In this document: one piece after another, positions 12,001 to 15,000 of the stretch | Layout of the letters: each line of letters begins with the position of its first letter | How positions within the stretch are numbered: position 1 is the stretch's first letter | NCBI RefSeq assembly: GCF_009931435.1 | Contig: NZ_CP043414.1 | DNA: 64,000 bases | DNA from: Escherichia coli | Lineage (GTDB): Bacteria > Pseudomonadota > Gammaproteobacteria > Enterobacterales > Enterobacteriaceae | Reading direction: 5' to 3' (one strand) | Made by a program: the position numbers

Positions 12001-15000
12001 ACTCACCGCAGAATATCGTTCAAGAGATTGCTGGCTTACGCTGAGGATTTTCATCTTTGCCTGATCGGTGAAAGTAACAAATCCTGCACCGTAAAATTTG
12101 GGTGTATCTTCAGCTGCACACAGGGCGCTAGCCAACTTACCGCCGGTGCATGATTCGGCGGTAGTTAAGCGTAATTGATCCGCGATAAGTCTTTGACTCA
12201 ACGCGGATGTCAGGTTTTCAATAGTGTCGGTATCTGCGAGTTGTACAATTTTATCTTTATTAATGTTCACTGTTTTTTGTCCACGCTATTATATGTAAAG
12301 GTGATTTGCTTTTTCTGTATGCTCGTCCAATATAATAATTTTCAAACATATAAATCCGATTATTCTGAAAATATGTTTAAGACTCTTCAATCTTCTTAAC
12401 TTTAGTGAGTTAAATTCTCTGAATATTTGACAGCTAGTTGGCTGATTTTAAATGCCTTATAACAATTGGCAGTATTCTTATTTGGCAATTATAAAAATAG
12501 CAACCAGACTTAATAAGTCAAACCATACGCAATTAAGGAGTTAGTATGAAATTTCAGGCCATTGTATTAGCAAGTTTTCTTGTCATGCCTTATGCGTTGG
12601 CAGATGACCAGGGCGGTTTAAAACAGGATGCAGCGCCACCACCGCCTCATGCAATAGAAGATGGCTATCGCGGAACCGATGATGCAAAAAAAATGACCGT
12701 TGATTTCGCAAAAACCATGCACGATGGCGCTTCGGTTTCACTACGCGGTAATTTGATTTCTCACAAAGGAGAGGACCGTTACGTTTTTCGCGATAAGAGC
12801 GGTGAAATTAATGTTGTTATTCCTGCGGCAGTCTTTGATGGACGAGAAGTTCAGCCGGACCAGATGATCAACATTAGCGGCAGTCTGGATAAGAAAAGCG
12901 CGCCGGCCGTCGTTCGGGTCACTCATTTGCAGAAATAAAAATAAATTAGCCTGATGGCCTGAACTACTGGGCCATTAGGGTATTGGGTTATGCTATTTGT
13001 CATCCTTTTAATTGCGATAATGCAGAGTTACTTTATAGAATTAAACACTTTTTTATCTGCTGATTTTGTTTTAAATCACAATGTTATCTCAGAGATGGCT
13101 CATAACTTCGGATTTCTATGAAAATATTGACGTAATTTTGCTTTTCTCTCGTTAGAATAGCGCGCACAAGGAACTGTGAAAAAGGAGTGGCAATGATCAA
13201 GAAGACAACGGAAATTGATGCCATCTTGTTAAATCTCAATAAGGCTATCGATGCCCACTACCAGTGGCTGGTAAGTATGTTTCACAGCGTGGTCGCGAGA
13301 GATGCCAGTAAGCCAGAAATAACGGATAACCATTCTTATGGACTGTGCCAGTTTGGTCGGTGGATTGATCATCTGGGGCCACTCGATAACGATGAATTAC
13401 CTTACGTTCGGCTAATGGATTCTGCCCATCAACATATGCATAACTGTGGTCGGGAATTAATGTTGGCTATTGTTGAAAATCACTGGCAGGACGCGCATTT
13501 CGACGCCTTTCAGGAAGGGTTGCTTTCTTTTACTGCGGCATTAACCGATTACAAAATTTATTTGCTGACGATCCGTAGCAATATGGATGTTTTGACGGGA
13601 TTGCCGGGTCGTCGGGTTCTTGATGAATCCTTTGATCATCAGTTACGCAACGCTGAGCCTCTGAATCTTTATTTAATGTTGTTGGATATTGACCGATTTA
13701 AATTGGTTAATGATACCTACGGGCATTTAATCGGCGATGTAGTATTACGCACCCTGGCAACTTACTTAGCCAGTTGGACGCGCGATTACGAAACGGTTTA
13801 TCGCTACGGGGGCGAAGAATTTATCATTATTGTCAAAGCGGCTAATGATGAAGAAGCATGTCGTGCAGGTATCAGAATTTGCCAGTTAGTCGATAACCAT
13901 GCCATCGCACACTCTGAAGGGCATATCAACATTACCGTGACAGCAGGTGTGAGTCGCGCATTTCCTGAAGAGCCGCTGGATGTGGTCATTGGAAGAGCGG
14001 ACCGGGCAATGTATGAGGGTAAGCAAACCGGAAGAAATCGCTGCATGTTTATTGACGAACAAAATGTGATTAACCGAGTTTAAGCTCCGTTTAACATTCA
14101 TTGAGAAAACTGATGCTACTGTGTCAACGATCCGTTATCAGTGCAGGAAAATGCCTGTTAGCGTAAAAGCAAAACACAAATCTATCCATGCAAGCATTCA
14201 CCGCCGGTTTACTGGCGGTTTTTTTTTCGCTGTCATAAAAATCAGGCCCCTTGTACACAGTTGTAACAAGGGGCCGGTTAGGTGAGGGATTATCTCCGTT
14301 CATTAGTCATCCCATTTGTGGCTGAAATACGCGGCCAGAAAACCAGAAAATAAAATTATTCCCAGTACGGCTATAAAAACATTCATATTACCCAGCATTA
14401 TTTGCCTCCGTTTATGGTGTGGTGTGTTTCCTCGCTTACCTTAATTTTCATCTCAATGAGAAAGATATTAGCAGAGGTAACCTAAACGAAGGCTGAATTA
14501 AATTTTTATTGTGTTCGACTTAAATCAACAAAGCGCGGGCTGCCCCCACGGTCTTGCACGAATCCCTTTTAACATCAGCACCCACGCAGCAATGATCACC
14601 AACGCTAAGATGATAAACAGCGAGGAAGGCGGCAGGCTGGTTAGCACTACGCCACTCACTAATGGGTTAATCGCCGCACCAAGCCAGCCTAAAGACTGAG
14701 CGGAAAAATAGCTGGCTTTCATTCCTGCCGGCGCAATATGGTCAATCAACATATACTCGCCCGGCGCATAAATGATTTCACCGACAGTAAATACCGCAGC
14801 TGACATACCCCACAATAGTAGGCTGTTGCCGGAAAAAATAAAACCAACCAGACCGATGACGAAACAGAGGGTGCCTGCTGTCATCAGCGCGCGGATGTTA
14901 GCCGGGTTAAGGCGGCGGCCCACGGAATATTGCAACGTAACTACCATGGCAGCATTAACCGGAAGAACAACCGCGACTACCTTTTCGGCAAAATCCCCAT

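What the first reader, a model, noticed from the sequence alone, without database searches (positions are those of the whole stretch)
14084..14525. Compact sRNA and small-protein locus between dgcZ and ydeE (MgrR and MgtS)
A 31-aa membrane protein (MgtS, not in the ORF track) is encoded on the minus strand at 14303..14398 and has its own terminator hairpin (about 14245..14275, read on the minus strand). A strong plus-strand intrinsic terminator at 14199..14228 is consistent with the MgrR sRNA ending there. A GTTTA direct-repeat-like sequence near 14088 may be a PhoP box. The MgrR 5' end was not determined.
Basis: partly seen in the sequence, partly recalled or inferred. Interest (0 to 1): 0.25.

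Follow-up and report, generated by a model that had tools for sequence, protein, structure and literature searches.

The report
Known MgrR sRNA and MgtS locus

Summary
Window 14084-14525 is the E. coli dgcZ-ydeE intergenic region. It holds two convergent PhoP-type transcription units with back-to-back terminators.

MgrR (Rfam RF01407, 275 bits) runs 14129-14227 on the plus strand. Its 5' end comes from the curated K-12 annotation and fits published nucleotide numbering. MgtS (31 aa, NCBIfam and Pfam hits) is at 14398-14303 on the minus strand. The hairpin at 14275-14245 is its intrinsic terminator: it is conserved in 33 distinct sequences with compensatory changes, and a published Term-seq 3' end maps 5 nt after it.

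Corrections:
- The conserved PhoP box for MgrR is 14088-14104, 12 nt before an extended -10. It is not the 14077/14088 pair.
- mgtS has its own box at 14499-14483.
- Two published small frames were missed: MgtT (starts at 14303, TAATG overlap) and CDS58 (14451-14398).

In this window a ninth T in the MgrR terminator frameshifts mgtT to 59 codons. About 3-5% of E. coli assemblies show this, and it may be an assembly error.

Already known; low interest.

The parts
14077..14082 (+). Upstream AGTTTA hexamer, in 11-bp register with the PhoP box; it overlaps the dgcZ stop codon (14081..14083). Probably accessory or chance.
   Evidence: (23 nt from the -10). Only 4 of 52 matching promoters from other species have at least 4/5 of GTTTA at this position.
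14088..14104 (+). PhoP box of the mgrR promoter: CGTTTA-ACATT-CATTGA
   Evidence: Conserved block cGTTTA-N5-c(A/G)TT(G/T)A in the alignment of 65 distinct upstream sequences. 52 of 65 match box-N12-TAnnnT, always with a 12-nt spacer, and the composite pattern occurs once in the 64-kb window. The K-12 mgtA and mgrB promoters have the same 12-nt geometry.
14114..14122 (+). Extended -10 of mgrR: TG-C-TACTGT
   Evidence: Consensus TGnTAnnnT. TG is present in 48 of the 52 matching promoters. It ends 6 nt before the mapped +1.
14129..14227 (+). MgrR sRNA: 99 nt here, 98 nt in K-12. It has a 5' stem-loop, an A-rich Hfq (ARN) region, the seed U55-A68 at 14183..14196, and a terminator stem at 14200..14219 followed by a U9 tail.
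   Evidence: Rfam RF01407, 275 bits against a gathering score of 55. K-12 b4698 aligns with one substitution (14132 C/T) and one extra T. The G41 and U55-A68 numbering of PMC6239178 fits a +1 at 14129. Folds; terminator conserved in 23 diverse sequences.
14219..14227 (+). T9 run: the U-tail of MgrR and, on the other strand, the Lys codons of mgtT. It is one T longer than in K-12.
   Evidence: About 3 of 60 evenly sampled E. coli records carry T9. Across species the run is T8 in 39 loci, T9 in 25 and T7 in 1.
14232..14275 (-). Intrinsic terminator of mgtS: hairpin 14275..14245 plus tail UGAUUUUUAUGAC (14244..14232). The main 3' end is expected at 14240.
   Evidence: Fold. In 33 distinct sequences 96.5% of cells are paired, 4 of 12 pairs show compensatory change, and 0 of 500 shuffles reach the observed values. 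The tail is T-rich in all genera. Term-seq gives a 3' end at K-12 1622804 (+), equivalent to window 14240.
14124..14303 (-). mgtT frame. The ATG shares its A with the mgtS TAA (TAATG). It is 59 codons here because of the extra T; in K-12 it is 34 codons and would end at window 14198.
   Evidence: ORF; RefSeq and K-12 annotation; marked 'frameshifted' in the T9 strain KC-Dl-1. Pfam PF23498 scores 71.9 bits but covers only profile positions 1-28 of 34. Literature.
14303..14398 (-). mgtS, encoding the 31-aa protein MgtS (M9I relative to K-12)
   Evidence: NCBIfam NF033842 scores 80.9 bits (cut-off 35) and Pfam PF22865 scores 85.4 bits (cut-off 27). The same I9 variant occurs in strain R32_14_1F.
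14398..14451 (-). CDS58, a 17-codon leader frame (MKIKVSEETHHTINGGK). Its TAA overlaps the mgtS ATG (TAATG).
   Evidence: Identical to CDS58 in PIRT-Seq supplementary file 5. Found only in E. coli proper among the 34 loci.
14465..14473 (-). Extended -10 of mgtS: TG-C-TAATAT. The start site is inferred near 14457.
   Evidence: Consensus tG.TA.taT and the pattern test. The start site was not mapped here.
14483..14499 (-). PhoP box of the mgtS promoter: AATTCA-GCCTT-CGTTTA
   Evidence: Conserved aaTTcA-N5-tGTTTA. 30 of 32 distinct promoters match, all with a 12-nt spacer, and the pattern occurs once in the window.

Best explanation
This is the known PhoQ/PhoP-controlled MgrR / mgtS locus of Escherichia coli. 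It consists of two convergent transcription units.

Each unit starts from a PhoP-box promoter: a direct hexamer repeat, a 12-nt spacer, then an extended -10. Each ends at its own intrinsic terminator. The two RNA 3' ends lie about 12 nt apart (14227 and 14240).

On the plus strand, low Mg2+ induces the Hfq-dependent sRNA MgrR (14129..14227). Its single-stranded seed (14183..14196) pairs with targets such as eptB and ygdQ.

On the minus strand, the same signal induces an mRNA from about 14457 to about 14240. It encodes MgtS, a 31-residue membrane protein that raises intracellular Mg2+ by increasing MgtA levels. In E. coli the mRNA also carries two poorly conserved overlapping mini-frames: CDS58 upstream and MgtT downstream.

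Shown here: the identities, coordinates, structures, promoter geometry and their conservation. Taken from the literature: PhoP dependence, Hfq binding, the targets and the MgtS function. Inferred: the mgtS start site.
For: Identity and order of the genes: RefSeq and curated K-12 annotation. 5,416 of 5,426 complete E. coli genomes match the region at 95% identity or more.

MgrR: Rfam RF01407 at 275 bits. The base-by-base alignment to K-12 b4698 places the 5' end at 14129. The published G41 and U55-A68 numbering fits this start.

MgtS: NCBIfam equivalog and Pfam hits over the full length.

Terminators: plus Term-seq 3' ends at K-12 1622804(+) and 1622824(-).

Promoters: conserved boxes with an invariant 12-nt spacer in 52 of 65 (mgrR) and 30 of 32 (mgtS) distinct sequences. 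The K-12 mgtA and mgrB promoters show the same geometry.

Regulation and function, from the literature: convergent PhoPQ-dependent transcription and the MgtA effect; MgrR is PhoPQ-dependent with targets eptB and ygdQ; the mgtS-mgtT operon is PhoQ-dependent.
Against: No result contradicts the identification.

Caveats:
- No expression data exist for this particular strain.
- The original MgrR and MgtS papers (PMC2841474, PMC5465934) could not be read, so the published PhoP-box assignment was not compared with mine.
- The phoP promoter control did not pass my simple thresholds.
- A loose PhoP-box pattern is only marginally enriched in the window.
- Term-seq reports the MgrR 3' end at the first U of the tail rather than at the annotated end.
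Confidence: 0.95

Rival explanations
1. The hairpin at 14245..14275 is not a terminator. It is merely coding sequence or a stabilising structure within an mgtS-mgtT mRNA that ends further downstream, so MgtT is the reason for its conservation.
For: The annotated mgtT frame runs straight through the hairpin. Tagged MgtT was detected, and mgtT reporter activity is PhoQ-dependent, so some transcripts must read through. In Escherichia the U-tract is interrupted (UGAUUUUUA).
Against: Term-seq places a 3' end in the U-run 5 nt after the hairpin. The hairpin and a T-rich tail are conserved in every genus that has mgtS, whereas the mgtT frame varies from 7 to 83 codons. Four stem pairs change in a compensatory way. 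The conserved 'NRPL...KGP' residues are simply the two stem arms read as codons.
Confidence: 0.07
2. The functional PhoP box of mgrR is the pair the reader pointed to, AGTTTA-N5-CGTTTA (14077..14093), rather than 14088..14104.
For: This pair has two perfect GTTTA cores at the canonical 11-bp spacing. E. coli therefore has three hexamers in phase, and a second PhoP dimer position is conceivable.
Against: It lies 23 nt from the -10, whereas the mgtA, mgrB and mgtS promoters have 12 nt. The 14077 hexamer is conserved in only 4 of 52 promoters, while the 14099 hexamer is conserved across all genera.
Confidence: 0.1
3. The ninth T (14219..14227), and with it the mgtT frameshift, is a homopolymer assembly error and not a real allele of this strain.
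For: T9 appears in assemblies of strains whose reference sequence has T8, for example the MG1655 assembly CP032667.1 against NC_000913.3. It is scattered across unrelated lineages (Nissle, O104:H4, ATCC 25922). That pattern fits error or recurrent slippage.
Against: One of the closest relatives at this locus (KC-Dl-1, 2 differences in 471 nt) also has T9. T9 is the normal state in 25 of 65 species loci, so it is biologically tolerated by MgrR.
Confidence: 0.35
4. MgtT and CDS58 are translated by-products with no function of their own, so the frameshift in this window is neutral.
For: The mgtT frame length varies from 7 to 83 codons among 34 loci, and the 34-aa form is confined to Escherichia. 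CDS58 exists only in E. coli proper. MgtT has no deletion or overexpression phenotype and is not membrane-associated. CDS58 gave the weakest western signal. About 3-5% of E. coli assemblies carry the frameshift.
Against: The ATG overlapping the mgtS stop is present in 34 of 34 loci. The first 8 codons show a weak coding signature: position entropies 0.52/0.69/0.92, and synonymous about equal to non-synonymous differences. Pfam holds an MgtT family.
Confidence: 0.6

Closest known systems
MgrR sRNA of E. coli K-12 (b4698; Rfam RF01407 'STnc560')
   Same: Same position between dgcZ and mgtS, and the same strand relative to its neighbours. 97 of 98 bases are identical. The seed (U55-A68), the A-rich Hfq region and the terminator stem are identical.
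   Different: C instead of U at nucleotide 4 (14132), which is the Rfam consensus base. The U-tail has 9 rather than 8 U. The Rfam model (214 nt, 14095..14309) is much wider than the 98-nt RNA: it begins 34 nt upstream of the 5' end and extends across the mgtS terminator.
MgtS (YneM), 31-aa regulator of MgtA (NCBIfam NF033842, Pfam PF22865)
   Same: Same length, 30 of 31 residues identical to K-12, the same genomic position, and the same PhoP-box promoter.
   Different: Ile instead of Met at residue 9. This variant is also seen in E. coli R32_14_1F, E. whittamii, Phytobacter and Kosakonia.
MgtT (b4775; Pfam PF23498), described by Weaver et al. 2019
   Same: The same TAATG start overlapping the mgtS stop. 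Of the first 28 residues, 26 are identical to K-12 (T15 for V, S25 for G).
   Different: A +1 frameshift in the A-run (the opposite strand of the MgrR U-tail) replaces the C-terminal PPVNRR with 31 unrelated residues. The frame then runs antisense across all of mgrR to 14124.
CDS58 of PIRT-Seq (NAR 2025, PMC12350097)
   Same: Identical 17-aa frame, MKIKVSEETHHTINGGK, with its stop overlapping the mgtS start.
   Different: None in sequence. It is a weakly supported candidate, not an annotated gene.
PhoP-activated promoters of mgtA and mgrB
   Same: A direct repeat of GTTTA-like hexamers 11 bp apart, with the proximal hexamer ending 12 nt before a TAnnnT -10.
   Different: In both promoters here one hexamer is degenerate: CATTGA for mgrR and AATTCA for mgtS.

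Membership tests
MgrR / Rfam RF01407 (STnc560) | Scores above the family's gathering threshold with the covariance model | tested here: met
   275 bits against a gathering score of 55, E = 7e-64, model positions 1-214
MgrR / Rfam RF01407 (STnc560) | Orthologous position and near-identity to the curated K-12 mgrR (98 nt) | tested here: met
   K-12 b4698 maps to 14129..14227 with one substitution and one extra T; it is flanked by dgcZ and mgtS
MgrR / Rfam RF01407 (STnc560) | Conserved single-stranded seed (U55-A68) and a Rho-independent terminator with a long U-tail | tested here: met
   The seed TATCCATGCAAGCA is at 14183..14196. The terminator is supported. The core is predicted mostly unpaired.
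MgrR / Rfam RF01407 (STnc560) | PhoP-dependent transcription and Hfq dependence | not testable with these tools
   Only the sequence prerequisites are seen: the PhoP box at 14088..14104, the ARN-like A-rich stretch and the U-tail. The dependence itself comes from the literature.
MgtS (NCBIfam NF033842 equivalog; Pfam PF22865) | Full-length match above the curated cut-offs | tested here: met
   80.9 bits (cut-off 35) and 85.4 bits (cut-off 27), residues 1-31 of 31
MgtS (NCBIfam NF033842 equivalog; Pfam PF22865) | Membrane localisation and raising of MgtA levels | not testable with these tools
   The hydrophobic core VFIAVLGIILFSGFLAAYF is visible in the sequence.
MgtT (Pfam PF23498) | Start codon overlapping the mgtS stop, and an N-terminal match to the family model | tested here: met
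   TAATG at 14305..14301; 71.9 bits against a cut-off of 27
MgtT (Pfam PF23498) | Intact 34-residue frame ending ...EKKPPVNRR | tested here: not met
   The match covers only profile positions 1-28 of 34. The extra T at 14219 shifts the frame, giving a 59-codon ORF. RefSeq marks the same allele as 'frameshifted'.
PhoP-activated promoter (PhoP box) | Two GTTTA-like hexamers 11 bp apart, placed 12 nt upstream of the -10 | tested here: met
   mgrR: 14088..14104, then 12 nt, then TACTGT. mgtS: 14499..14483, then 12 nt, then TAATAT. Both are conserved. The mgtA and mgrB controls have the same geometry.
PhoP-activated promoter (PhoP box) | PhoP binding and PhoP-dependent activation | not testable with these tools
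   Literature only
Intrinsic (Rho-independent) terminator, mgtS strand | GC-rich hairpin followed by a U-tract, with an RNA 3' end in the U-tract | tested here: met
   Fold at -21.9 kcal/mol, z = -5.1. Covariation. Conserved T-rich tail. The published Term-seq 3' end at K-12 1622804 equals window 14240 (K-12 data, not this strain).

The most novel reading that the evidence does not exclude
The short frame that starts at the TRATG junction with the mgtS stop codon may be a conserved cis-acting translation element rather than a protein gene.

The junction is present in 34 of 34 loci. The first eight codons read MN-x-D-N/S-P-x-P. In some genera the frame ends in Pro-stop 3 nt before the hairpin.

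A ribosome re-initiating there would sit on the 5' arm of the mgtS terminator. It could thereby tune read-through into the antisense strand of mgrR, coupling MgtS translation to interference with MgrR.
Probability: 0.08. Interest if true: 0.45.

Novelty: already known. Interest (0 to 1): 0.1.

Why it matters
There is little new biology here: the locus and its parts are published.

The practical value lies in annotation. The report gives exact coordinates for MgrR, both PhoP boxes, both terminators and the two overlooked mini-frames. It also corrects which hexamer pair is the conserved PhoP box.

One cautionary point emerges. A single homopolymer, the U-tail of MgrR, is also coding sequence for MgtT on the other strand. 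A one-base length change that is harmless to the sRNA therefore rewrites the small protein. The same run is prone to assembly error.

The comparative data also show that MgtT and CDS58 are evolutionarily young, whereas the terminator they overlap or adjoin is old.

Tried and rejected
(1) Counting loose PhoP-box matches in the window gave 28 against 18.9 expected. That is too weak to be useful, so I replaced it with conservation and spacing tests.

I rejected it after the 65-sequence alignment and the spacing controls.

(3) The consensus terminator scanner did not report the mgtS hairpin, presumably because of its bulge. Folding and covariation were used instead.

(4) I tried using the '>=99% identity' band of a 74-nt BLAST query to count the T9 allele. 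The band was contaminated by short, perfect partial hits. I used evenly spaced sampling of the ranking instead, which gives only a rough 3-5%.

(5) The original papers (Moon and Gottesman 2009, PMC2841474 / PMID 19889087; Wang et al. 2017, PMC5465934) are not held. The published PhoP-box and 5'-end figures therefore could not be checked directly.

(6) A first translation of the mgtS leader used the wrong coordinates; one search corrected it.

(7) The phoP promoter did not pass my simple box/-10 thresholds, so only two of three positive controls are informative.

(8) A bidirectional-terminator reading of the 14245..14275 hairpin was considered. On the plus strand it is followed by GGTTAGGTGAGGG with no T-run, so it was rejected.
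Full report
**What is in the sequence.** The interval 14084..14525 lies between two ORFs. One is a plus-strand ORF ending at 14083. The other is a minus-strand ORF whose stop codon lies at 14527..14525. A megablast of 13900..14700 against 5,426 complete E. coli genomes matches 5,416 of them at 95% identity or more. The annotated features under the match are dgcZ, mgtT, mgtS and ydeE (regions shown). The window is therefore E. coli. At this locus it belongs to a somewhat unusual lineage, because only one genome reaches 99% identity over the 801 bases.

The curated K-12 record lists the following:
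- ydeE
- mgtS at 1622646-1622741
- mgtT (b4775) at 1622741-1622845
- the ncRNA mgrR (b4698) at 1622817-1622914 on the opposite strand
- dgcZ

**MgrR.** Rfam's STnc560 model (RF01407) matches 14095..14309 on the plus strand at 275 bits against a gathering score of 55. STnc560 is the Salmonella name of this Hfq-binding RNA. The model is wider than the RNA itself.

Aligning the K-12 region to the window base by base puts the 98-nt mgrR at 14129..14227. There is one substitution (14132, C for T) and one extra T in the terminal run. Published numbering provides an independent check on the 5' end. PMC6239178 describes a 98-nt MgrR with G41 inside the A-rich stretch and a pairing region from U55 to A68. 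With +1 at 14129, G41 falls in AAAAGCAAAA, and positions 55-68 read UAUCCAUGCAAGCA.

The predicted fold has a 5' stem-loop, a largely unpaired core and the terminator. The terminator stem is at 14200..14219 and is followed by nine T.

**MgtS and its terminator.** The 31-codon ORF at 14398..14303 matches two curated models over its full length:
- NCBIfam equivalog NF033842: 80.9 bits, cut-off 35
- Pfam PF22865: 85.4 bits, cut-off 27

It differs from K-12 MgtS by M9I. This variant is shared with strain R32_14_1F and with several other genera.

On the minus strand it is followed by UGAUUUUUAUGAC.

**Comparative set.** To judge the hairpin, I collected the locus from other species with one scan of species-representative genomes. 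The query was 20 nt of MgrR containing the seed. The scan returned 67 loci from Escherichia, Citrobacter, Salmonella, Enterobacter, Lelliottia, Leclercia, Kosakonia, Phytobacter, Pluralibacter, Silvania, Yokenella and others. Thirty-four regions, counting the window, have a convergent mgtS next to MgrR.

In all of these the hairpin and a T-rich tail are present. On the 33 distinct sequences:
- 96.5% of cells form standard pairs
- 4 of 12 pairs show changes on both sides
- no shuffle out of 500 reaches the observed paired fraction, covariation score or number of cells changed on both sides
- slid controls reach only 26-58% paired

Published Term-seq data for K-12 list a plus-strand 3' end at 1622804, within ...CAAGGGGCCUGAUU|UUUAUGA. 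This corresponds to window 14240, 5 nt after the base of the stem.

**Promoters.** An alignment of 65 distinct MgrR upstream sequences shows one conserved block, cGTTTA-N5-c(A/G)TT(G/T)A, followed by TGnTAnnnT. In the window this corresponds to:
- CGTTTA-ACATT-CATTGA at 14088..14104
- a 12-nt spacer
- TG-C-TACTGT at 14114..14122
- the mapped +1 six bases further on

Fifty-two of the 65 sequences match the composite pattern, and the spacer is exactly 12 nt in every one. Most of the rest differ only in the last base of the second hexamer (CATTGG). The pattern occurs once in the whole 64-kb window.

It is conserved in only 4 of the 52 matching sequences and would sit 23 nt from the -10.

On the other strand, mgtS has the mirror arrangement: AATTCA-GCCTT-CGTTTA at 14499..14483, then 12 nt, then TG-C-TAATAT at 14473..14465. 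Thirty of 32 distinct promoters conserve it.

As positive controls, the K-12 mgtA and mgrB promoters show the same box, 12-nt spacer and TAnnnT geometry. The phoP promoter did not pass my simple thresholds.

PhoP dependence itself is taken from the literature. Both genes are described as convergently transcribed in a PhoPQ-dependent manner. The region upstream of the mgtS-mgtT operon has PhoQ-dependent reporter activity.

Two further small frames have been published in this interval.

MgtT (Weaver et al. 2019) starts at an ATG that shares its A with the mgtS TAA (TAATG, 14305..14301). In K-12 it is 34 codons long. It runs through the mgtS terminator, and its last 29 nt overlap the 3' end of mgrR on the opposite strand.

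CDS58 comes from PIRT-Seq. It is the 17-codon frame MKIKVSEETHHTINGGK at 14451..14398, and its TAA likewise overlaps the mgtS ATG.

Neither frame is old. Among the 34 loci the ATG at the mgtS stop is always present, but the frame behind it is 7 to 83 codons long. The 34-codon form is confined to Escherichia. The shared 'NRPL...KGP' residues are simply the two arms of the hairpin read as codons. CDS58 exists only in E. coli proper; it is absent from E. albertii, E. whittamii and a divergent 'E. coli' species representative. MgtT has no reported deletion or overexpression phenotype.

**The frameshift in this window.** The T-run of the MgrR terminator is nine T here (14219..14227) and eight in K-12. 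On the minus strand this run encodes the Lys codons of mgtT. The extra base shifts the frame, and the ORF becomes 59 codons, running antisense across all of mgrR to 14124.

Pfam's MgtT model accordingly matches only profile positions 1-28 of 34. RefSeq marks the same allele in strain KC-Dl-1 as 'frameshifted'.

Sampling the BLAST ranking at even steps, 3 of 60 rows have the nine-T length, which is roughly 3-5% of records. They include an MG1655 assembly, although the MG1655 reference has eight T, and several unrelated lineages. Assembly error or recurrent slippage are therefore both plausible.

For MgrR the difference should not matter. Across species the run is eight T in 39 loci and nine in 25.

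**Mechanism, as best supported.** Low Mg2+ activates PhoQ/PhoP. PhoP bound at the two boxes then activates both promoters.

MgrR, with Hfq, pairs through its seed with eptB, ygdQ and other mRNAs.

The mgtS mRNA mostly ends at its own terminator. It yields MgtS, which raises MgtA levels and intracellular Mg2+. A minority of transcripts must read through the terminator to allow the detected MgtT.

The identities, coordinates, structures and promoter geometry are shown here. The regulation and functions are from the literature. The mgtS start site (about 14457) is inferred from the -10.

**A residual oddity.** The 19 nt after the mgtS stop (TRATGAACGGAGATAATCC) are conserved across genera. The first eight codons of the mgtT frame show a weak coding signature. 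Entropy by codon position is 0.52/0.69/0.92, against 0.22/0.09/0.89 for mgtS. Synonymous and non-synonymous single-base differences are about equal. Neither figure is corrected for phylogeny.

In Pluralibacter- and Yokenella-like loci the frame ends with Pro-stop 3 nt before the hairpin. A re-initiating ribosome there would cover the 5' arm of the terminator. Whether this tunes read-through toward mgrR is speculation and could not be tested.

**Verdict.** The finding is real, correctly interpreted and already known. The additions are exact boundaries, a corrected PhoP box, a second PhoP box, two missed published mini-frames and a strain-specific (or artefactual) frameshift in one of them.

Noticed in passing
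window 14426..14443 (minus strand): The mgtS leader contains a block, TAAGGTAAGnGAGGAAAC, that is conserved at the nucleotide level across most genera with mgtS. The CDS58 frame that covers it in E. coli is not conserved. Its function is unknown; it could be a standby or SD-like site, or a regulator binding site.
   Followed up: partly
window 14287..14305 (minus strand): The 3' UTR stretch TRATGAACGGAGATAATCC, right after the mgtS stop, is conserved across genera. It carries a weak coding signature in the mgtT frame for about 8 codons.
   Followed up: partly
L006, L009, L011, L014, L017, L023, L034, L049, L060 and others: In Enterobacter, Lelliottia, Leclercia, Silvania and Huaxiibacter, MgrR with its PhoP-box promoter is present, but no mgtS lies within about 380 nt downstream. 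The MgrR-mgtS pairing is therefore not universal.
   Followed up: partly
L015: 1438-1457 and 3032-3051: Enterobacteriaceae bacterium RIT691 carries two copies of the MgrR core 1.6 kb apart. One has an adjacent mgtS but lacks the conserved promoter block in the alignment.
   Followed up: no
L008, L059, L013: Contigs titled 'Caldithrix sp. MAG' (locus identical to K-12 mgtS, mgtT and CDS58), 'Chryseobacterium sp. 18061' (close to Citrobacter sp. 18056) and 'Proteobacteria bacterium MAG' carry enterobacterial MgrR loci. These are probably contamination or mislabelled bins.
   Followed up: no
window 14095..14309: The Rfam family RF01407 is 214 nt long. It begins 34 nt upstream of the MgrR 5' end and extends across the mgtS terminator into the last 7 nt of mgtS. 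Its boundaries are much wider than the 98-nt MgrR.
   Followed up: yes
K-12 1622824 (equivalent to window 14219): Term-seq lists the dominant MgrR 3' end at the first U of the tail (score 2.4 million). The annotated end is 7 nt further on. This may be trimming or a mapping effect of the U-run.
   Followed up: no
window 14534..14550 (minus strand): A terminator-like hairpin, CGTGGGGGCAGCCCGCG followed by CTTTGTTGAT, lies inside the last codons of ydeE. It sits just upstream of the mgtS promoter and is possibly the ydeE terminator.
   Followed up: no
window 14084..14128: There is no terminator between the dgcZ stop (14083) and the mgrR promoter, which begins 5 nt later. dgcZ transcripts probably read into mgrR and end at its terminator. 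This is an inference.
   Followed up: no
window 59193..59209: This is the only perfect match to TGTTTA-N5-TGTTTA in the window. It lies in a rare accessory region, annotated as a fimA-like fimbrial subunit, an alpha/beta hydrolase and an IS481 transposase. Only 17 of 5,426 genomes contain the region in full.
   Followed up: partly
window 2499..2697: Rfam hit to IS009 (RF02111) at 221 bits against a gathering score of 117, on the plus strand.
   Followed up: no
H44 (NZ_CP058917.1); H50 and H51 (O157:H7): One E. coli genome has an IS200C insertion inside this intergenic locus. In O157:H7 genomes the match stops at query base 439 of 471, so the ydeE side differs.
   Followed up: no
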